Positions 55,038 to 64,000 of a stretch of DNA of 64,000 bases are shown here, piece by piece. The notes below the pieces were generated by a model. The model had not been told where the DNA came from. It searched no databases and was given only the letters and a program-made list of their open reading frames with translations. The stretch is taken from assembly GCA_029933075.1 (NCBI GenBank), contig JAOZOW010000006.1, positions 1,080-65,079 of the forward strand. The letters are read 5' to 3'. The stretch comes from Deltaproteobacteria bacterium. GTDB lineage: Bacteria > Desulfobacterota > DSM-4660 > Desulfatiglandales > Desulfatiglandaceae. Position numbers and translations under genes: made by a program. The first letter of the stretch is position 1. Each line of letters starts with the position of its first letter.

Positions 55038-56339
55038 TCAACGCATCAGTCCGGGCAGGAAGAGGGCGATCTGGGGAAAAATCAAGAGAATCAGATTGCA
55101 GATGAGAAGCGCTGCAAGCATGGGAAGGACCCCTCTGAATATGGCTTCTAACGGAACATCTTTAGCAACGCCGTAAACCACATAGACGTTGACCCCCACA
55201 GGGGGTGTGATCACGCCCATCTCTGTGATCAGCACAATCACGACCCCGAACCATATGGGATCATATCCCAGGGCCTGAGACACGGGGAAGAATATGGGGA
55301 TGGTAAGCATGATCATGGCCAGGGCATCCATGAAGCAGCCACCAAAAAGGTAAACCATTATGATGACCCCCATAATAGCGGATTTGGGCAGGGGAAGGGT
55401 GGTGACCCAATCAGCTAACTGGAAAGGCACCCTGGTTACGGCCATGAAATGTCCGAATATGACTGCGCCGGTGACAATTACCATTACCATGCAACTGATC
55501 CGCGTGGTGTCGGCAAGGGACTTAACGAACCCTTCCCATGAGAGCTGTTTTCGTATGATGGCCAGTAACAACGTGAGGAACGCCCCTGCAGCGGCCGCTT
55601 CTGTAGGAGTGAAGATCCCGAAGAAGATGCCGCCCATGACCAGAGCGAAGATAACCAATGTTTCCAGCACTCCCGCAAAGGATCTGATTTTTTCCTTTAA
55701 AGAGGTCTTTGGTCCGGGAGGGGCAAGGGCTGGGTTTTTAAGGACCCTCAGATAGATGGTCATCAGGAACAGGAAAGAGAGAAGTATGCCGGGGAGAATC
55801 CCTGCGGCGAAGAGCTTGCCGATGGATTGCTCGGTCAGTATCCCGTAGACAATGAAGATGACGCTGGGCGGGATCAGAATACCGAGGCTCCCCGCAGCCG
55901 CTACCGTGCCGGTGGCGAGGCTCATGTCGTAATTGTATCGCTTCATTTCTGGCAGTGTAACGGTGGCCATGGTGGCTGCCGTGGCATTGGTGGAACCGGA
56001 GATGGCCGAAAACCCGGCGCAGGCTCCTACCGTGGCCATGGCAAGACCGCCTTTGCGGCTGCCCAGGAATACGTAAGCGGAGTCGTAAAGCCTTCGGCTG
56101 ATGCCGGAGTGAAAGGCGATCTGACCCATGAAGACGAAAAGGGGGATTACAGTCAGGCCATAAGAGGAAAACACCTCGAAGACGTCTCTTGCAAGCAGGC
56201 TGAGGCCGGGTGCCAGTCCACGGACATAGCTGAACCCTACAAAGCCGAGGAACCCCATTACAAAACCTACCGGCATGTTTGAGAACAGGAGGATGACTAA
56301 GACGATGATTCCTATGATGCCTATTGCGGTTAAGCTCAT
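55038..56339 (-). CDS. dctM: TRAP transporter large permease (DctM family)
   Basis: 433-aa polytopic protein with ATGA overlap with dctQ. Confidence 0.9.
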   Translation of the reverse strand: MSLTAIGIIGIIVLVILLFSNMPVGFVMGFLGFVGFSYVRGLAPGLSLLARDVFEVFSSYGLTVIPLFVFMGQIAFHSGISRRLYDSAYVFLGSRKGGLAMATVGACAGFSAISGSTNATAATMATVTLPEMKRYNYDMSLATGTVAAAGSLGILIPPSVIFIVYGILTEQSIGKLFAAGILPGILLSFLFLMTIYLRVLKNPALAPPGPKTSLKEKIRSFAGVLETLVIFALVMGGIFFGIFTPTEAAAAGAFLTLLLAIIRKQLSWEGFVKSLADTTRISCMVMVIVTGAVIFGHFMAVTRVPFQLADWVTTLPLPKSAIMGVIIMVYLFGGCFMDALAMIMLTIPIFFPVSQALGYDPIWFGVVIVLITEMGVITPPVGVNVYVVYGVAKDVPLEAIFRGVLPMLAALLICNLILLIFPQIALFLPGLMR

Positions 56340-56863
56340 TTGCCGAATACCTTGACGATGTTATTGGACAGGTCCACCAACAAAACGAGACACACAGCAG
56401 CCGAGGCAAAAGCTATCCCGTATACGAAGGGATAAAAAGGGAGTTGAAGAGTAAGGGATACCTCCCCCGTGGTCCGTAGTTGATTTGCGTACAGGACCGA
56501 CTGCCAGGCTATAAGGGCAAACAGGATGAACCCGGAGGAATCTGTTATGGTGCCAATTATGGCTTGAATTCTCTTGGGAAGAAGCCGCACGATCAGGCTT
56601 ACCGAGACATGCCCCTTTTCCACAGAGGTATGGGCCATGGCAAAGGCCACCGCAACCGCCCCGAGAAAGCACACCAGCTCATAGGTCCCGGGGATGGGTT
56701 TGAACGGTGAAAGAAAGGCCAGGTGATATCTATGATAGAAGGTTACTCCGAGGCGCAGGATTACGTCGGCACATGTAAGCAGCATCATGGCCACAATGGC
56801 AATCCCCGCAATCCAGTAAAGGATTTTTGCCAGCTCTTTTGAGGCTTTCTCCAAAAGCTTCAT
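56336..56863 (-). CDS. dctQ: TRAP transporter small permease (DctQ family)
   Basis: 175 aa with 4 predicted TM helices, upstream of and coupled to dctM. Confidence 0.85.
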   Translation of the reverse strand: MKLLEKASKELAKILYWIAGIAIVAMMLLTCADVILRLGVTFYHRYHLAFLSPFKPIPGTYELVCFLGAVAVAFAMAHTSVEKGHVSVSLIVRLLPKRIQAIIGTITDSSGFILFALIAWQSVLYANQLRTTGEVSLTLQLPFYPFVYGIAFASAAVCLVLLVDLSNNIVKVFGK

Positions 56864-57109
56864 CTTTCCACTACCTCGTCAATCCCTGTCGTTCCCTTCC
56901 AGGCATCGAGCGCACAACGGAAAGGTTTTGTACCTGGGGCCGGCCTTGCTCAGGACCCCGCTTTATTCACCGCACTGTTCGCCTTTAAACAAGAGGTAGC
57001 GAATCGCCCTTTAAAATGGTACCTTCTCTTGGGTTGAGAGCTCTTTATCACATTAGAAAGAAGAAAGTCAATGAAGACTGTTAGCAGACGATTGAAAAGG
57101 TTTTTTGTC

Positions 57110-57138
57110 TTGACATGGTTTGTTTCTTAAGCTAATTG
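57110..57138 (+). promoter_or_regulatory. Candidate promoter for dctP
   Basis: TTGACA (57110-57115), 17 nt, TAATTG (57133-57138). Confidence 0.3.
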
Positions 57139-57230
57139 CAAATACGTGAAGAAAGGCATAAACAGGGTTAAGGAGGTTATTGTAACGACGGATTAATTTA
57201 TTTAACGGTATTTTGAAAAGGAGGATGGCT

Positions 57231-58256
57231 ATGAAAGGCAGAGGACATGTGCTGGTTTTTTTTCTTGTAATCGCCGTTGGAATGATGTTCGGGTTTGCTC
57301 CCCAGGCCGCCCAGGCCAAGGCTATCGAGTTGAGCTATGCCAATTTTTTCCCGCCCAGTCACATACAGGCCAAGTTGGGTCAGTCCTGGGCCAAAGAGAT
57401 TGAAAAGCGCACAAACGGAAAGGTCAAGATTACTTACTACCCTGGGGGTTCCTTACTTAAGGGACCAAAGGTCTATGATGGCATTGTCAATGGCATCGCG
57501 GATATCGGGATGTCTGTCTTGGCTTACAGCCGGGGCCGGTTCCTGGCCATGGCGGCTTTTGATCTTCCCTTGGGGTATCCCAATGGCAAGGTTGCGACCC
57601 GGGTGGTGAATGACTTCTATAAAAAATTCAAGCCCAAAGAGCTTTCAGATGTAAAGATGCTCTATGTTTTTGGCCATGGACCCGGAATCCTCCACACCAA
57701 GAAGCCTGTTTATAAAATCGAAGACATAAAAGGCCTGAAAATCCGCGCCACCGGCAATAGCGCCAAGGTGGCCCAGGCCTTGGGGGCGGTCCCGGTGGCC
57801 ATGAGCCAGGGGCACGCCTATGAAGCCCTTCAGAAGGGCGTGGTGGATGGCACATTTGCCCCTATAGAGGTCTTGAAGGGATGGAAGCAGGCAGAAGTGA
57901 TCAAGTATACGACCGAATGTTACAGCATTGCATATTCGACCGGGTTTTTCGTGGCCATGAACCTCCAGAAGTGGAATGCCCTGCCAAAGGATGTGCAGAA
58001 GGTCTTTGAAGAGGTGAGCGAGGAATGGATTCCCAAGACCGGCGCGGCATGGGATTCCAGTGACGCGGAAGGTCGAAAGTTCACCCTGAGCCTGGGAAAT
58101 AAGATTATCCCCTTGTCCAAAGAGGAAAGCGCCCGCTGGGCCAAGGCTATAACGTCGGTTATCGCAAATTATGAAAAGAAGGCGGAGGCCAAAGGCTTGC
58201 CCGGGAAGGATTACGTGAAATTCCTCCAAAACGGCATCAAGAAATACAGCAAGTAG
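57231..58256 (+). CDS. dctP: TRAP transporter substrate-binding protein (DctP family)
   Basis: Signal peptide ending AQA-KAIEL, then NFFPPSH...IRATG...typical DctP motifs. AAAGGAGG RBS lies 6 nt before ATG 57231. Confidence 0.9.
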   Translation: MKGRGHVLVFFLVIAVGMMFGFAPQAAQAKAIELSYANFFPPSHIQAKLGQSWAKEIEKRTNGKVKITYYPGGSLLKGPKVYDGIVNGIADIGMSVLAYSRGRFLAMAAFDLPLGYPNGKVATRVVNDFYKKFKPKELSDVKMLYVFGHGPGILHTKKPVYKIEDIKGLKIRATGNSAKVAQALGAVPVAMSQGHAYEALQKGVVDGTFAPIEVLKGWKQAEVIKYTTECYSIAYSTGFFVAMNLQKWNALPKDVQKVFEEVSEEWIPKTGAAWDSSDAEGRKFTLSLGNKIIPLSKEESARWAKAITSVIANYEKKAEAKGLPGKDYVKFLQNGIKKYSK

Positions 58257-58354: not shown

Positions 58355-59851
58355 TTAGATTTTTTCAAGGATTCGCCTTTTCAATTCCCTCTTAAGGATC
58401 TTGCCCGCGCTGCTTCTGGGAAATTCGGATACCTGGATAAACTCCTTGGGCACCTTGTAGGGAGAGAGCGCTGATTTGAGGAAAGCCTTCAGCTCGGCCT
58501 GGTCTAAGGATGTGTTCTCCTTGGGGATGATGACCGCCGTCACCCTTTCACCATATACCATGTCCGGCAGGCCGATCACAGCGCATTCCTGGACCTCCGG
58601 CCGGGTATAGAGGAGCTCCTCGATTTCTCTGGGATAAACATTTTCTCCACCCGTAATGATCATGTCTTTCAGCCGATCCACTATATAGAGGTAACCATTG
58701 TCGTCAAAGAGACCGATATCCCCGCTCCGGAACCACTCACCCCGGAAAGCGGCCTTCGTGTCTTCGGGCCTGTTCAGGTATCCTTTCATGATATTGGGCC
58801 CCCTGATGCAGATCTCCCCTTCGTCGCCGGGGCTCAGCCTGTTTCCCTCCAGGTCCCTGATTTGCACTTCTACGGTATTGACCGGTGTGCCTACTGATCC
58901 GATTATGTGGCGATAATAATGATTGTAGGTGACCATGGAGGCGCTCTCGGTCATGCCGTAAGCCTCATGGATCTCAAGCCCCGTTCGGTTTTTCCACTCG
59001 CGCACCAATTCTGCGGCCATACTGGCTGCAGCAGAGAAGGCATATCTGAGGGACCCCAGCCTTTCTTTCAGATCTTTCTGGGCCAAGAGATGGACATAAA
59101 TGGTGGGTACCCCATAAAATTTGGTCACCCGTTTCCTTTCTATGGCATGGAGGGCCTTTTCAAGGTCAAATGAGGGTTGGAGGATCACCGAACCCCCGCT
59201 GTAGATGGTGGAGTTCACGATGTGGATCTGCGCGAACACATGATTCAAAGGCAGAAAGCACAGGGCGCGGTCGGCAGGGGTTGATCTTTCCTGGTAGGCT
59301 ACGTTATGAATCGATGTCATGAGGTTTTCATGGCTCAGCATGACTCCCTTTGGCTCACCCGTAGTACCTCCTGTATAAAGGATGGCGGCCGTACTTTCTC
59401 TCTCCCTTTCTTTGGCCCTGAAGGCCGGGGTGCCCAACCGCACGAGATCCTCAAAGGAAAGATCTCCGCTCTGGCTCACTATCTTTTCCAGGCCGGGGTA
59501 GCGGTCTCTTTCTCTTAGGTCGTCCAGTTTTTCATCTGCGGTGAAGAGGATTCTCGGTTGAGCATCTTCCATGATCCGGGTCAATTCCTTTTTGGTAAGG
59601 AGATTGGATAGGGTTATTGCAATGGCGCCGGCCTTCAGGGCTCCATAGTAAAAGAAAAGCCAATGGCAGGAGTTGGGCGCACACAGGACCACATGGTCAC
59701 CGGGTCTGACGCCCAGGCTGGTGAGTGCTGCGCCCACACGGCTTGCGGTCTCATTGAATTCCCTGAAACTGACCTCCCGGTCTTCTTCAATGAGGGCAGG
59801 GCGGTCAGGGAAGTAAAAGGCCGTATATTCAAGGTTCCTTGCTATGTTCAT
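58355..59851 (-). CDS. AMP-binding acyl-CoA synthetase (medium/long-chain or aromatic-acid CoA ligase class)
   Basis: LYTGGTTGEPKGVMLSH, YGMTE, GDIG and GRLKD motifs; 498 aa. Confidence 0.88.
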   Translation of the reverse strand: MNIARNLEYTAFYFPDRPALIEEDREVSFREFNETASRVGAALTSLGVRPGDHVVLCAPNSCHWLFFYYGALKAGAIAITLSNLLTKKELTRIMEDAQPRILFTADEKLDDLRERDRYPGLEKIVSQSGDLSFEDLVRLGTPAFRAKERERESTAAILYTGGTTGEPKGVMLSHENLMTSIHNVAYQERSTPADRALCFLPLNHVFAQIHIVNSTIYSGGSVILQPSFDLEKALHAIERKRVTKFYGVPTIYVHLLAQKDLKERLGSLRYAFSAAASMAAELVREWKNRTGLEIHEAYGMTESASMVTYNHYYRHIIGSVGTPVNTVEVQIRDLEGNRLSPGDEGEICIRGPNIMKGYLNRPEDTKAAFRGEWFRSGDIGLFDDNGYLYIVDRLKDMIITGGENVYPREIEELLYTRPEVQECAVIGLPDMVYGERVTAVIIPKENTSLDQAELKAFLKSALSPYKVPKEFIQVSEFPRSSAGKILKRELKRRILEKI

Positions 59852-59933: not shown

Positions 59934-61280
59934 TCATATATTTTGCGTTTCCTCCTTTCTTCTATCTACGACCCTTTTCGCCTTCCCCTCGTAACGAGGA
60001 AGGGCGAAGGGTTCCTTTATCTCGATTTGTGGGCTTATTCCCGCGCGTGCCTGGATATGGGAGGAGATCTCTTTTTTGATCCTTTTGAGTTCTTCTTCCT
60101 TTTCCCACGAGGCAGGATCGGCTTCTACCATAATAAGAAGGGTTTCCAGGGTGTCCGGAGGTTGATCGATGACGATCTGCCACCCCCCTCCTACCCCCCG
60201 GACCCGGCTCAAGATCTCTTCAATCTGTGAGGGAAAGACCAGGGTCCCCCTGACCTTGAGGACATCATCTGACCTACCGGTTACGTGATGGATTAAAGGA
60301 TGGGCCTCCCTTCCGCAGGCACACCCGTATGGCTCCGATGCCATGCCTGATATGTCCCTTGTCCGCCAGCGAATCAGGGGATTGGATTCCCTTGTGAGCG
60401 TCGTAAAGACCAGCTCCCCCCTTTCGCCGGGCTCAAGCCGTTCCCCTGTTTCCGGGTCAATGACCTCCACAAAATAATGGTCTCCCAGTATGTGAAGCAG
60501 ATTGCTTTTCACTGTATGTGAGCAGCTAAAGGCCACGCAGGCGCCACCTAATTCTGAGAGCCCATAGGTCTCATGATAGAGAAAGCCCGGAGGGAGACTG
60601 GCCTCCAATTTCCTTCGAAATGAGGGGGCGGCCACTTCTCCTCCGAAATCCCCAGTCCTCAAGGCCCAATCTTTGCGAGGATCAATGCCGTGCTTGCACG
60701 CTTCATTGATGAGGTATCCAAGAAAGGTGGGCGTACAGCAGATCACCGTATGCTTCATATCTTTCAGCCACTGGATGGCGGCCATCGTTCTCCCGGGACC
60801 AGCGGGAAAAAGGCTGGCTCCCACCGCCTTTGCCGCCCTTTCCATGCACACCCCGCCCAGAAAGAGCCCATATCCGTAACACTGGTAGACCATGTCTTCT
60901 TTACCTATACCAAAGCTTTTCCAGATTCTTCCCATTTGATTCAGGAGGGTGACGTCCCAGTCTTTTTCGGTAAATCCGATGAGGGTCGGAACCCCTGTGG
61001 TCCCGGAAGACGCAGCAAACCGGTGGATCCGTTCAACGGGGACTCCAAGAAAACCATAAGGATACTGAGCCCGAAGGTCTTTCTTTTCAGTGAAAGGAAC
61101 GATGACCAGGTCATCGGTGGTGCGGATATGTTTTGGCTTGATCCCGTTCTTATCGAACAGTGCCTTATAATAAGGAATAGTATCGTAACACCTTTGCACA
61201 AGGTCTCTGAGTCTTTCGTTTTGCAGAGTCCGAAGGGCCTTCAGGGAAATGGTATCCATCTCTTTATCAAAATATTCCAT
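59934..61280 (-). CDS. Phenylacetate-CoA ligase (PaaK)/F390-synthetase-family adenylating enzyme
   Basis: ASSGTTGVPT motif and PaaK-like length (448 aa). Confidence 0.82.
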   Translation of the reverse strand: MEYFDKEMDTISLKALRTLQNERLRDLVQRCYDTIPYYKALFDKNGIKPKHIRTTDDLVIVPFTEKKDLRAQYPYGFLGVPVERIHRFAASSGTTGVPTLIGFTEKDWDVTLLNQMGRIWKSFGIGKEDMVYQCYGYGLFLGGVCMERAAKAVGASLFPAGPGRTMAAIQWLKDMKHTVICCTPTFLGYLINEACKHGIDPRKDWALRTGDFGGEVAAPSFRRKLEASLPPGFLYHETYGLSELGGACVAFSCSHTVKSNLLHILGDHYFVEVIDPETGERLEPGERGELVFTTLTRESNPLIRWRTRDISGMASEPYGCACGREAHPLIHHVTGRSDDVLKVRGTLVFPSQIEEILSRVRGVGGGWQIVIDQPPDTLETLLIMVEADPASWEKEEELKRIKKEISSHIQARAGISPQIEIKEPFALPRYEGKAKRVVDRRKEETQNI

Positions 61281-61339: not shown

Positions 61340-61732
61340 TCAGTCAAAGAGAGATTCAATGGTATCCAAGATCTCTTGTTTTGTGGTTCCAGGCGTAAAA
61401 ATGGCATCCGCACCTCGGGCTTTCAGGTCCTGCACATCATCTGGAGGTATCACACCTCCCACCACTACTTTGACCTGTTTCATGCCCATCTCATTTAATT
61501 TCCTGATTAATGCATCGGTATAGTAGAGGTGCTCGCCTCCCAGGAAGCTGATCCCTACTGCATCAGCATCTTCTTCGGCAGCAATCTGAGCGATACGCTC
61601 CGGTGTGTTGTACAGCCCTGCGTAGATTATTTCGTAGCCACCCTCCATCAGCCACTTGGCAATGATTCTCAGCCCATTATCGTGGGCGTCTAACCCCATC
61701 TTGCCCACTATCAGTCTTTTCCTTTTGATCAT
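61340..61732 (-). CDS. Acyl-CoA mutase small subunit (cobalamin-binding domain)
   Basis: GLDAHDNG (DxHxxG base-off/His-on motif), ISFLGG and VVVGGVIP motifs; 130 aa. Confidence 0.88.
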   Translation of the reverse strand: MIKRKRLIVGKMGLDAHDNGLRIIAKWLMEGGYEIIYAGLYNTPERIAQIAAEEDADAVGISFLGGEHLYYTDALIRKLNEMGMKQVKVVVGGVIPPDDVQDLKARGADAIFTPGTTKQEILDTIESLFD

Positions 61733-61870
61733 GGTATCACTTCTCCCTGATGAACATAGTCATTCCTATACTTTAACCTATCCGCCATCGCTCTATATGA
61801 GCTTGTAAGATTAGTCTTAATTTCCTCGAACTAAAATGGATCTCAGATCTCTAAAAAGATCAGCTCTCTA

Positions 61871-63493
61871 TCAACTTGGGATTTTAAAATCTGTAGCCCT
61901 TCTTAGGGCATCACATATCTCCTGGAGTGTCGCCCTGGCTTCAACAGCTTTCATAATCGACTCAAAGAGGTTTTCTTCCGGTCTTTGTCGCACCAAATCC
62001 TGCAGATCATGTAAGGCCCTTTTCACCGTTTCAGTATCGCGGTGTTTCTTGTAGTCTTGGGCATAACGAACCCTTTCTTCCTGCATGTCAGAAGAATGCC
62101 TGAAAATGTTAATCTTGACCTGTTCATCCTCCTCCCTGAAGATATTGACGCCTACCACAGGCTGTTGTCCGGTTTCAATCGCTTCAGCCATTTTGTACCG
62201 GGCCTGATTGATTTGTTCTTCCACCCACCCGTCCTTGAAGCATTGAATAAATCCTCCCTTGTCCTCGATAATCTTCATCAGATCCAAGATTTCTTCTTCC
62301 AGTTGGTCAGTGAGCGATTCCACCAAATAGGAGCCTCCAAGCGGATCAACCGAATTCACCACTTTGGTTTCATAGGCAATAATCTGTTGCGTGCGTATGG
62401 AAAGCTTATGGCTCTCCTCGGTAGGCAGGGAATAGGCCTCATCGTATCCTGTGGTGTGGATGGACTGAGTACCGGCCAGGACAGCGGCTAAAGTTTGAAT
62501 GGTAGCCCGCACGATGTTGTTCAAGGGTTGCTGGGCTGTCAAGGGGAGTGCGGATGTCTGAATTGCGGTCCTGAACCACAGACTCCTCTCATTTTTGGCC
62601 CCAAAGGTCTCCCTGAGCATCCGGGCCCAGATCCGCCTCATGGCCCTCAACTTGGCTACCTCTTCGAAAAGATCGATATGGGCGGCGCAGAAAAAAGCCA
62701 TTCGATGGGCAAAGCGGTCCACGTCAAGACCCCGGCCCATCAGTCTTCTGATGTAATCGGCGGCCAGAGAAATGGAAAAAGCCGCTTCCTGAACGGCATC
62801 AACTCCGGTTTCACGCACGTTGTATGCGTTGATATTGACAATGTTCCATCTGGGTACGCGCTGAACAATATACTCCATAACATCCAGGCCGATTTTCACA
62901 GTCAGGTCAATGGGAAAGAATGCGGTTACGGACTCGTATGTGGGTCCCACAAACTGGGTCAGTGCGCAGTTCATGATCGTTCCGATCAGCTTTTCCCATG
63001 GGATTCCCCTCTCCTTTGCCATCAAGAGGTATTGAGACATGATCACAGCGGAGCAGGGCGGTTGAACGATCAGGGTAGAGCTTACTCGGTCGAGGGGGAT
63101 GTCTGCATACAGAGCTTCTATATCCTCGTAGGTACAAAGGGAGGTCCCTTGGAGGCCCACATCGGCCCGGGCCAGAGGATGATCGGGATCCAGGCCCAGT
63201 TTGGTTCCGATATCGGTGTCCATATTGATCCCTGTCTGACCGATTTTGAGAAGATACTTGATCCTTTCGTTGCTCTGCTCCGGTGTGCCGAATCCACTCT
63301 GTTGCCGCCTGGTCCAAAGCCGCCCCCTGTACATGTCCCTGTGAATGCCCCTGGTGAAGGGGTACTGGCCCGGGTCCGGCAGCTCTTTGTCCCAGTCGGA
63401 TTTTCTATAAACCTCTTTGTATGCAAACCCGGATAAGCTATGGAAATGAGGAATTTTTTCGCCGTCGAGATAGATGAAATTTTTTTGATCCAT
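61871..63493 (-). CDS. Methylmalonyl-CoA-mutase-family large (substrate-binding TIM-barrel) subunit, divergent subtype
   Basis: YPFTRGIHRDMYRGRLWTRRQQSGFGT...GINMDTD...GTIMNCALTQF aligns to the MCM motifs YPFTRG...PWTIRQYAGF...GLSVAFD...TIQNDILKEF, with substitutions at substrate-contact positions. Confidence 0.85.
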   Translation of the reverse strand: MDQKNFIYLDGEKIPHFHSLSGFAYKEVYRKSDWDKELPDPGQYPFTRGIHRDMYRGRLWTRRQQSGFGTPEQSNERIKYLLKIGQTGINMDTDIGTKLGLDPDHPLARADVGLQGTSLCTYEDIEALYADIPLDRVSSTLIVQPPCSAVIMSQYLLMAKERGIPWEKLIGTIMNCALTQFVGPTYESVTAFFPIDLTVKIGLDVMEYIVQRVPRWNIVNINAYNVRETGVDAVQEAAFSISLAADYIRRLMGRGLDVDRFAHRMAFFCAAHIDLFEEVAKLRAMRRIWARMLRETFGAKNERSLWFRTAIQTSALPLTAQQPLNNIVRATIQTLAAVLAGTQSIHTTGYDEAYSLPTEESHKLSIRTQQIIAYETKVVNSVDPLGGSYLVESLTDQLEEEILDLMKIIEDKGGFIQCFKDGWVEEQINQARYKMAEAIETGQQPVVGVNIFREEDEQVKINIFRHSSDMQEERVRYAQDYKKHRDTETVKRALHDLQDLVRQRPEENLFESIMKAVEARATLQEICDALRRATDFKIPS

Positions 63494-63526: not shown

Positions 63527-64000
63527 TCACCCAGCCAATCTCCTGCTTTGCGTCATTTTAAACTCGTTAAAGCCTGTCAGAAATATGTCATGAATAATTT
63601 CAGAGAGTTCGCGAGGCGTGACCGTTCCCTTAGGGTCATACCAGGAATAGATCCAGTTACACATTCCAAAAAGGGTGAACGTTATTGCGGTCAGCTGTGC
63701 CTTTGGAATCGAATCGCGAGCGAGCTCTTTTAGGATTCCAACCACAATTTGATAATATTCTCGTTCCTTTTCAGCGATACTGCTGAAGTATTTGGCCGGA
63801 AGGCAATGGGCGTCATGAAGCAAGACCTTGGCCTGATGCAGATTTTTTGAGTAGAGTTCAATATGTCGTGAGATAACGAATTTGAGCTTGTCTCCACTAT
63901 CCTCAATTTGCGATAGGCTTTGCTCCAGGTCTTCCAAAACCAAATCCATGTAAGTGGATAGCACAAAAAAAAGGACTTCGGTTTTACTCGGAAAATAATA
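63527..64000 (-). CDS. TetR-family regulator, 5' end beyond the right edge
   Basis: The frame stays open to the window edge (YYFPSKTEVLFFVLSTYMDLVLEDLE...), which is the typical end of a TetR HTH domain. The stop lies 33 nt before the mutase start. Confidence 0.75.
   Translation of the reverse strand, partial: YYFPSKTEVLFFVLSTYMDLVLEDLEQSLSQIEDSGDKLKFVISRHIELYSKNLHQAKVLLHDAHCLPAKYFSSIAEKEREYYQIVVGILKELARDSIPKAQLTAITFTLFGMCNWIYSWYDPKGTVTPRELSEIIHDIFLTGFNEFKMTQSRRLAG

What the first reader, a model, noticed from the sequence alone, without database searches (positions are those of the whole stretch)
61340..63493. B12-dependent acyl-CoA mutase with non-canonical substrate-pocket residues
The large subunit aligns well with methylmalonyl-CoA mutase (YPFTRG..., DPDHP, etc.), but the specificity-determining positions differ from every type I can recall. 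RQ-Y-AGF (Tyr89 in MCM, Phe in isobutyryl-CoA mutase, Ile in 2-hydroxyisobutyryl-CoA mutase) is RQ-Q-SGF here, with Gln65. GLSVAFD is GINMDTD. TIQNDILKEFMVRNTY (Gln197 and Arg207, which bind the substrate carboxylate in MCM) is TIMNCALTQFVGPTY, with no Arg. Loss of the carboxylate-binding Arg argues against methylmalonyl-CoA, and the Gln/Asp-rich pocket suggests a polar, non-carboxylated acyl-CoA. The small subunit has an intact DxHxxG B12 motif, so the enzyme is probably active.
Basis: partly seen in the sequence, partly recalled or inferred. Interest (0 to 1): 0.6.

Follow-up and report, generated by a model that had tools for sequence, protein, structure and literature searches.

The report
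Uncharacterised B12 acyl-CoA mutase clade
These two genes encode a vitamin-B12-dependent enzyme that rearranges the carbon skeleton of a CoA-bound acid; it belongs to a tightly conserved branch known only from uncultured anaerobes, its substrate pocket and one catalytic residue differ from every studied relative, and its substrate is unknown and probably new for this enzyme family.

Summary
Window 61340-63493 (minus strand) encodes a split acyl-CoA mutase: a 540-aa substrate subunit and a 130-aa B12 subunit with DAHDNG.

Alignments to solved structures show these replacements:
- MCM Tyr89 to Gln65.
- MCM Ala116 (HCM Asp117) to Asp92.
- Gln197 to Met174.
- Arg207 to Gly183-Pro184, followed by a 4-residue insertion.

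All five features are invariant in 122 relatives and persist down to 57% identity. The rest of the scaffold is kept: 63 of 74 canonical conserved columns.

The clade is monophyletic (support 1.0). It lies outside the group that contains MCM, ICM-like and HCM sequences. All 51 motif matches, in a collection of one genome for each of 185,579 species, are in uncultured-organism assemblies (MAGs).

The same genome has separate MCM-type and ICM-type paralogues.

The neighbours recur across relatives: a TetR repressor, three kinds of acid-CoA ligase, a 2-oxoacid:ferredoxin oxidoreductase and a TRAP importer. This points to a cassette for uptake, CoA activation and isomerisation.

The substrate cannot be named from sequence. 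It is most likely non-carboxylated and polar-substituted. I rate it a new variant of a known kind, of moderate to high interest.

The parts
61871..63493 (-). MutL: acyl-CoA mutase large (substrate-binding, TIM-barrel) subunit, 540 aa
   Evidence: Pfam PF01642 at E 2e-168 and TIGR00641 at 520 bits. AlphaFold model has pTM 0.88 and TM 0.87 to HCM 4R3U_A.
63299..63301 (-).
   Evidence: Invariant in 122 clade sequences.
63218..63220 (-). Codon for Asp92, at the position of MCM Ala116 / HCM Asp117
   Evidence: Invariant in the 122 clade sequences and nearly invariant (90% or more) in the wider 42-sequence alignment.
62942..62974 (-). Remodelled pocket helix and loop, TIMNCALTQFVGP: Met174 (MCM Gln197), Cys176 (Asp199), Thr179 (Lys202), Gln180 (Glu203), Gly183-Pro184 (Arg207 site). 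A 4-residue insertion follows.
62819..62824 (-). Codons for Tyr224-Asn225. Tyr243 is kept; the catalytic His244 is replaced by Asn.
61340..61732 (-). MutS: B12-binding small subunit, 130 aa, DAHDNG at residues 15-20
   Evidence: PF02310 at E 1.6e-21 and TIGR00640 at 136 bits. Motif read.
63527..64000 (-). TetR-family repressor (TetR_C_24). It is cut by the window end; the full 209-aa ORF is on contig C25 at 64606-65235.
   Evidence: TetR orthologues of at least 40% identity stand next to the mutase in 16 of 52 unique related loci.
59934..61280 (-). PaaK-like acid-CoA ligase, 448 aa
   Evidence: PF14535 and PF00501. TIGR02155 scores 342 bits, below its 646 cut-off. Best PDB matches are phenylacetate-CoA ligases at 279 bits; the 2-hydroxyisobutyryl-CoA synthetase scores 157 bits. 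Orthologues lie beside the mutase in 13 of 52 loci.
58355..59851 (-). Second, FadD/MatB-like acid-CoA ligase, 498 aa
   Evidence: Orthologues of 58-64% identity lie beside the mutase in L186 and L197.
55038..58256 (.). TRAP transporter: DctP 57213-58256 (+), DctQ 56336-56863 (-), DctM 55038-56339 (-)
   Evidence: PF03480 for DctP; DctQ and DctM are named from their position and from blastp matches among relatives. DctP homologues lie beside the mutase in 10 of 52 loci.

Best explanation
MutL and MutS form a two-subunit, adenosylcobalamin-dependent acyl-CoA mutase with the same subunit layout as HcmAB and IcmAB. It belongs to an uncharacterised clade.

Inferred mechanism, from the family's established chemistry:
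1. MutS binds AdoCbl with His17 as the lower ligand.
2. Co-C homolysis gives a 5'-deoxyadenosyl radical.
3. The radical abstracts a hydrogen from the carbon next to the one bearing the thioester.
4. The COSCoA group shifts by one carbon, and the hydrogen is returned.

The operon supplies the substrate. The TRAP system imports a carboxylic acid, the PaaK-like and/or FadD-like ligase makes its CoA ester, the mutase isomerises it into a form that ordinary beta-oxidation-type enzymes can handle, and the TetR repressor controls the set.

The substrate is not methylmalonyl-, isobutyryl- or (most likely) 2-hydroxyisobutyryl-CoA. It probably lacks a free carboxylate and carries a polar group (hydroxy or amino) that Asp92 and Gln65 hold. 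The pocket, opened by Arg207 to Gly-Pro, may also take a bulkier, possibly aryl, substituent.

Shown here: the gene anatomy, the residue replacements and their conservation, the phylogenetic position, and the neighbour statistics. Inferred: activity, direction and substrate class.
For: Family and fold.

Intact DxHxxG.

Scaffold kept, pocket changed. Of 74 columns that are at least 85% conserved in canonical mutases, 63 are kept. Eight of the 11 changes lie in the pocket segments: A116D, N168P, Q197M, D199C, K202T, E203Q, G242A, H244N.

Conservation and selection: Gln65, Asp92, Met174 and Asn225 are invariant in 122 sequences, and the motifs persist in 38 more. Purifying selection is shown.

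Distinct clade: it is a single 50%-identity cluster, and the next representative is 46% identical. Clade support is 1.0. It sits in a 47-tip group (support 0.995) that excludes the 78-tip group (0.983) holding HCM, MCM and the ICM-like sequences.

The genome has separate MCM-type and ICM-type paralogues, one MeaB and a PduO-type adenosyltransferase.

Neighbours in 52 unique loci: MutS 36, TetR 16, PaaK-like 13, PrpD-like plus a second FadD-type ligase 10, DctP 10, MeaB 5, 2-oxoacid:ferredoxin oxidoreductase 3. The three feeder types are interleaved among orthologues of at least 75% identity. That suggests one acyl-CoA reached by several routes.
Against: No biochemical data exist for any member.

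From my own knowledge of the MCM literature, His244 and Gln197 hold the migrating thioester carbonyl, and His244 variants lose 100- to 1000-fold activity. Both are replaced here, so activity cannot be taken for granted.

There is no MeaB in this operon.

The neighbours are heterogeneous and often cut by short contigs, and they do not converge on one substrate.

Polar pocket residues do not prove a polar substrate. The model's confidence is low in the inserted loop (pLDDT about 63 at residues 181-190).
Confidence: 0.78

Rival explanations
1. It is a divergent 2-hydroxyisobutyryl-CoA / 3-hydroxybutyryl-CoA mutase (HCM or RCM type) serving 2-hydroxyisobutyrate or ketone degradation.
For: The best sequence and fold match in the PDB is HCM 4R3U (419 bits against 342 for human MCM; TM 0.87). 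Asp92 aligns with HCM Asp117. The PaaK-like ligase family includes the 2-hydroxyisobutyryl-CoA synthetase 6HDW, so the ligase-plus-mutase layout resembles the ligase-plus-mutase operon of the 2-hydroxyisobutyrate pathway (own knowledge).
Against: HCM sits in the canonical group, far from this clade. HCM's Ile90, Gln198 and His245 are Gln, Met and Asn here. The ligase is nearer to phenylacetate-CoA ligases (279 bits against 157). None of the 52 loci showed the thiamine-diphosphate enzyme and short-chain dehydrogenase of the sulfate-reducer acetone cluster (PMC7888143). No record from those cultured ketone degraders appeared among the motif matches.
Confidence: 0.07
2. It rearranges an aryl-substituted acyl-CoA in anaerobic aromatic-acid catabolism. 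Examples are 2-aryl/3-aryl-propionyl-CoA or tropoyl/phenyllactyl-CoA, loosely analogous to the IaaGH mutase of auxin degradation.
For: The PaaK-like ligase is closest to phenylacetate-CoA ligases. The TRAP binding protein's nearest solved relatives (4N6D, 4PGN, 4NAP, 7NR2) are, as I recall and could not verify, binders of aromatic acids. Aldehyde:ferredoxin oxidoreductase genes lie near the mutase in several relatives (Pfam confirmed for L195 and L179; clustering). Members occur in Syntrophorhabdus and Desulfatiglandales MAGs. The pocket lost bulky residues at the Tyr89 and Arg207 positions. The cassette parallels the iaa-like locus on contig C49 (PMC8360864).
Against: Arylacetyl-CoA is what a PaaK-type ligase, or an arylpyruvate oxidoreductase, would make. 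It has no hydrogen-bearing carbon next to the thioester-bearing carbon, so a 1,2-shift is impossible. 3-Arylpropionates need no mutase, and 2-arylpropionates are rare. The PrpD-like context has no obvious aromatic logic. The oxidoreductase subunits score best to pyruvate/2-ketoisovalerate types, not phenylglyoxylate types.
Confidence: 0.2
3. It is a catalytically dead or non-mutase B12-binding pair, for example a sensor or a storage protein, because the carbonyl-holding His244 and Gln197 are lost.
For: His244 to Asn and Gln197 to Met. No MeaB in this operon.
Against: Conservation of the CoA and AdoCbl scaffold is very high (63 of 74 columns). Asn or Asp at the His244 site is common across a large, diverse half of the family (31 of 78 non-canonical representatives), which argues for an alternative catalytic set-up rather than decay. 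The genes are consistently linked to CoA ligases, and MeaB is adjacent in 5 relatives. Purifying selection is strong.
Confidence: 0.05

Closest known systems
2-Hydroxyisobutyryl-CoA mutase HcmAB (Aquincola tertiaricarbonis, PDB 4R3U) and its ligase-plus-mutase operon
   Same: Split large and small subunits. Best sequence match (419 bits) and fold match (TM 0.87). Asp at the position of HCM Asp117. A PaaK-superfamily ligase encoded beside the mutase.
   Different: 38% identity only, and not in the same phylogenetic group. Ile90 to Gln, Gln198 to Met, His245 to Asn, and Gly-Pro plus a 4-residue insertion where HCM has Gln (the MCM Arg207 site). The ligase is nearer to phenylacetate-CoA ligases. 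No MeaB-type chaperone in this operon.
Methylmalonyl-CoA mutase (P. shermanii 1REQ, human 2XIJ)
   Same: Same fold (TM 0.85), the same overall radical 1,2-shift chemistry expected, Tyr243 kept, DxHxxG cobalamin ligation.
   Different: Tyr89, Gln197, Arg207 and His244 are all replaced. The B12 domain is a separate polypeptide. The genome has its own canonical MCM-type paralogue on contig C120.
Isobutyryl-CoA mutase IcmAB / IcmF (PDB 4XC6)
   Same: Two-subunit layout like IcmAB. Non-carboxylated substrate expected.
   Different: ICM-type sequences have Phe and Gln at the Tyr89 and Arg207 positions and keep Gln197 and His244; this clade has none of these. The genome's ICM-type paralogue, with MeaB, is on contig C95. 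Similarity to IcmF is weak (168 bits).
Benzylmalonyl-/phenylsuccinyl-CoA mutase IaaGH in the indoleacetate (iaa) cluster of Aromatoleum (PMC8360864)
   Same: Cassette logic: a binding-protein-dependent importer, a PaaK-like ligase (IaaB) and a B12 mutase.
   Different: The IaaGH substrate carries a carboxylate. The iaa-like paralogue in this genome (contig C49) keeps Tyr, Arg and His, whereas the query does not. No CoA-transferase, IaaF-type dehydrogenase or molybdenum hydroxylase lies next to the query.

Membership tests
AdoCbl-dependent acyl-CoA mutase family (Pfam PF01642 plus PF02310) | Full-length MM_CoA_mutase substrate domain | tested here: met
   PF01642 at E 2.2e-168, covering profile positions 3-510 of 512. 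TIGR00641 scores 520 bits, above its 304 cut-off.
AdoCbl-dependent acyl-CoA mutase family (Pfam PF01642 plus PF02310) | Cobalamin-binding domain with the DxHxxG base-off/His-on motif | tested here: met
   MutS matches PF02310, and TIGR00640 at 136 bits (cut-off 57). DAHDNG at residues 15-20.
AdoCbl-dependent acyl-CoA mutase family (Pfam PF01642 plus PF02310) | TIM-barrel fold of the large subunit | tested here: met
   AlphaFold2 pTM 0.88. Foldseek TM 0.87 to 4R3U_A and 0.85 to the MCM chains.
AdoCbl-dependent acyl-CoA mutase family (Pfam PF01642 plus PF02310) | AdoCbl-dependent 1,2-rearrangement activity | not testable with these tools
   Needs enzyme assays.
AdoCbl-dependent acyl-CoA mutase family (Pfam PF01642 plus PF02310) | G-protein chaperone (MeaB) and adenosyltransferase available | tested here: inconclusive
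   No MeaB in this operon. The genome has one MeaB, beside the ICM-type paralogue on C95, and a PduO-type adenosyltransferase on C37. MeaB is adjacent in 5 of 52 related loci.
Methylmalonyl-CoA mutase | Tyr89, Gln197, Arg207 and His244 substrate and catalytic set | tested here: not met
   Gln65, Met174, Gly183-Pro184 and Asn225. NF006944 scores 429 bits, far below its 876 cut-off.
Isobutyryl-CoA mutase | Phe at the Tyr89 site and Gln at the Arg207 site, with Gln197 and His244 kept | tested here: not met
   The signature is Q/D/M/P/Y/N, against F/A/Q/Q/Y/H in the ICM-type sequences of the tree.
2-Hydroxyisobutyryl-CoA mutase | Ile90 plus Asp117 specificity pair, and membership of the HCM clade | tested here: not met
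   Asp is present, but Ile is replaced by Gln. HCM falls in the canonical 78-tip group (support 0.983) that excludes the query.

The most novel reading that the evidence does not exclude
The clade catalyses a thioester 1,2-shift not yet described in nature. The shift moves the CoA-thioester relative to a hydroxy or amino substituent of an acid derived from an amino acid, an amine or a fermentation product. Examples are 4-hydroxy- or 4-aminobutyryl-CoA to 3-hydroxy- or 3-aminoisobutyryl-CoA, lactyl-CoA to 3-hydroxypropionyl-CoA, or a bulkier 3-hydroxy/2-hydroxy pair. The polar group then becomes removable by ordinary beta-elimination or beta-oxidation enzymes. In this reading Asn225 replaces the canonical His244/Gln197 pair as the carbonyl-holding residue. 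The many feeder modules (ligases, 2-oxoacid and aldehyde oxidoreductases, amine oxidase) all converge on that one acyl-CoA.
Probability: 0.2. Interest if true: 0.8.

Novelty: new variant of a known kind. Interest (0 to 1): 0.55.

Why it matters
Only a handful of acyl-CoA mutase specificities are known (MCM, ICM/IcmF, ECM, HCM/RCM, PCM, IaaGH). Each opened a pathway or a biotechnological route.

This clade is abundant in anoxic sediment, peat and wetland metagenomes: more than 120 clusters at 90% identity. It is absent from cultured organisms in the collection searched, and it replaces both the specificity residues and the catalytic His. Finding its substrate would add a carbon-skeleton rearrangement to anaerobic carbon cycling.

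It would also test whether His244 is dispensable in this family. The cassette of binding protein, two ligases and a repressor gives a cheap experimental way in.

Tried and rejected
- Literature. Nine full-text searches found no paper on this clade. The acetone/ketone HCM of Desulfococcus and Desulfosarcina (PMC7888143) and the engineered lactyl-CoA mutase (PMC11599936) are different enzymes.
- TRAP ligands. I tried to confirm the ligands of the nearest TRAP binding-protein structures. The key paper is not held, so that clue rests on memory only.
- Metagenome scan. One of its two patterns was general to all mutases, so only 8 of 80 loci were clade members.
- B12 riboswitch or other RNA. None in the window. 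The promoter and terminator scan was no better than chance.
- Arylacetyl-CoA as substrate. Rejected on chemical grounds: the neighbouring carbon bears no hydrogen.
- The HGD-D pair in L079. I first read it as a 2-hydroxyacyl-CoA dehydratase. NCBIfam places it nearest to double-cubane reductases, below the cut-off, so it gives only weak support for a hydroxyacyl substrate.
- PrpD-like partner. It is equally distant from IDS epimerase and cis-aconitate decarboxylase, so it gives no functional clue.
Full report
**Anatomy**

On the minus strand the window ends with a co-oriented gene row:
- A TetR repressor, window 63527 to beyond 64000. The full 209-aa ORF is on contig C25 at 64606-65235.
- MutL, 61871-63493, 540 aa.
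- MutS, 61340-61732, 130 aa.
- A PaaK-like ligase, 59934-61280.
- A FadD/MatB-like ligase, 58355-59851.
- A TRAP transporter next to them: dctP on the plus strand, dctQM on the minus strand, 55038-58256.

MutL is a full-length MM_CoA_mutase domain (E 2e-168). MutS is a B12-binding domain with DAHDNG at residues 15-20. The window has no riboswitch or other Rfam element.

**Checking the observation**

The evidence is phmmer alignments to solved structures and a 278-sequence MAFFT alignment. For P. shermanii MCM, the literature number is the chain index plus 1. For HCM, it is the chain index minus 11.

| MCM residue | HCM residue | This protein |
|---|---|---|
| Tyr89 | Ile90 | Gln65 |
| Ala116 | Asp117 | Asp92 |
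| Gln197 | Gln198 | Met174 |
| Arg207 | Gln | Gly183-Pro184, then 4 inserted residues |
| Tyr243 | Tyr | Tyr224 (kept) |
| His244 | His245 | Asn225 |

It did not see that Asp92 matches the HCM specificity residue, nor that the catalytic His is lost.

From my own knowledge of the MCM literature, His244 and Gln197 hold the carbonyl of the migrating thioester, and His244 variants lose two to three orders of magnitude in kcat. That both are replaced is the most unusual feature.

**Is it a real, working gene?**

- Gln65, Asp92, Met174 and Asn225 are invariant in 122 sequences of the clade. Gly183-Pro184 is invariant in a 42-sequence alignment.
- The motifs WTRRQQSG, G[IL]NxDxD, GTIMNC and N[ASG][YR]NxRE persist in nearly all of 38 further full-length relatives, down to 57% identity.
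- Of 74 columns that are at least 85% conserved in canonical mutases, 63 are retained. Eight of the 11 changes lie in the pocket segments.
- Against four orthologues, pN is 0.10-0.13 while synonymous sites are saturated.
- The AlphaFold model (pTM 0.88) superposes on HCM with TM 0.87 and on the MCM chains with TM 0.85.
- The genome encodes a PduO-type adenosyltransferase and one MeaB.

**Where it sits in the family**

- At 50% clustering the clade is a single cluster, whose representative is 71% identical. The next representative is only 46% identical.
- In a FastTree of 158 sequences the clade has support 1.0. It groups with three other odd representatives (0.986) inside a 47-tip group (0.995).
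- HCM, human MCM and the genome's MCM-type and ICM-type paralogues lie together in a 78-tip group (0.983) that excludes the query.
- HCM is therefore only the best available solved relative, and Asp92 is probably convergent with HCM Asp117.
- Asn or Asp at the His244 site is common in the non-canonical part of the family.

**Paralogues**

The genome has four more large subunits:
- C120 has the canonical Y/A/Q/R/Y/H signature.
- C49 has the same signature and sits inside an iaa-like cluster.
- C95 has the ICM-type F/A/Q/Q/Y/H signature, with MeaB and acyl-CoA dehydrogenases.
- C68 is another odd one.

The ordinary jobs are thus filled by other genes.

**Distribution**

- The search for homologous proteins returned more than 120 clusters (90% identity) at 73-83% identity, all from metagenomes or MAGs.
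- 16 of 209 genomes of the order hold the gene.
- A clade-specific DNA motif, searched in a collection of one genome for each of 185,579 species, matched 51 stretches of DNA. All are MAGs. They include Desulfobacteraceae, Desulfatiglandales, Syntrophorhabdus, Syntrophaceae, Nitrospinota, Dehalococcoidaceae and several Alphaproteobacteria.

**Neighbours**

These are counts over 52 unique loci with a mean of 8.9 kb of sequence. Many loci are truncated, so the counts are minima.

| Neighbour | Loci |
|---|---|
| MutS | 36 |
| TetR orthologue | 16 |
| PaaK-like ligase | 13 |
| PrpD-like protein plus a second FadD-type ligase | 10 |
| DctP | 10 |
| MeaB | 5 |
| Window-type FadD-like ligase | 3 |
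| POR/VOR-like 2-oxoacid:ferredoxin oxidoreductase with a GltD-like subunit | 3 |

Occasional neighbours:
- aldehyde:ferredoxin oxidoreductase
- amine oxidase
- ETF with an acyl-CoA dehydrogenase
- OYE-type reductase
- enoyl-CoA hydratase
- an HGD-D pair with its ATPase

Ligase-type, PrpD-type and oxidoreductase-type contexts are interleaved among orthologues of at least 75% identity. The simplest reading is one acyl-CoA reached by several routes: from the free acid, from the 2-oxoacid one carbon longer, or from an aldehyde or amine.

**What it probably does**

The shown facts fit a cassette of uptake (TRAP), activation (ligases), isomerisation (mutase) and control (TetR).

The substrate class is an inference:
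- There is no Arg or other cation at the carboxylate site, and a conserved Asp lies in the pocket. Both argue against a free carboxylate.
- Asp92 and Gln65 could hold a hydroxyl or an amino group.
- The loss of Tyr89, Arg207, Asp199 and Lys202 opens space for a larger substituent.
- Arylacetyl-CoA is excluded on chemical grounds.
- I cannot choose between hydroxy-, amino- and aryl-substituted candidates.

**Novelty**

The held literature has no characterised member. Earlier notes from this scan flagged the same or sister clades in other genomes as uncharacterised. I used them as leads only and re-tested the motif, the TetR link and the ligase link here.

I rate it a new variant of a known kind. 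The chemistry class is known. The specificity, and perhaps the catalytic arrangement, are not.

Noticed in passing
Own genome contig C49:4900-19000 (outside the window): The locus reads EtfB, EtfA, acyl-CoA dehydrogenase, a regulator, MutS, MutL (canonical Tyr/Arg/His), DctPQM, a PaaK-like ligase, and a three-gene FAD / 2Fe-2S / Mo set that I read as xanthine-dehydrogenase type from sizes and N-terminal sequences only (no family search). It looks like an iaa-type (indoleacetate) degradation cluster and is a structural twin of the query cassette.
   Followed up: partly
Own genome contig C68:29261-30946: A further non-canonical mutase large subunit (signature L/V/Q/V/Y/N, Asn at the His244 site) next to a divergent TetR gene. 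No small-subunit gene was seen nearby.
   Followed up: no
L084:5783-11605; also L201 and L205: Some relatives carry two diverged large-subunit genes of this clade (60-64% identical to the query) with a PaaK-like ligase gene, and in L084 and L205 also the MutS gene, between them. This may be a heteromeric enzyme.
   Followed up: no
L062/L184, L076/L192, L167, L183, L187, L201, L207, L209: A subset of the clade has Arg instead of Tyr at the Tyr243 position (NSRN or NARN). Several of these loci also carry the PrpD-like gene and/or the second FadD-type ligase. The Arg could bind a carboxylate, so this subset may have a different substrate.
   Followed up: no
L079:2644-6040 (same contig as L188): A 59%-identical orthologue is followed by two HGD-D family genes and a BcrAD/BadFG ATPase, that is an ATP-driven radical dehydratase or reductase module. 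The best NCBIfam model is the double-cubane reductase, below its cut-off.
   Followed up: partly
L195:5371-7197, L179:3166-5163, L191, L205, L084: Genes of the tungsten/molybdenum aldehyde:ferredoxin oxidoreductase family recur near the mutase and PaaK-like pair in the 57-64% identity subclades. Pfam confirmed this for L195 and L179; the others rest on sequence clustering.
   Followed up: partly
window 61733-61870: The spacer between mutL and mutS is 138 nt, unusually long. Orthologous spacers are 18-87 nt. No Rfam match.
   Followed up: no
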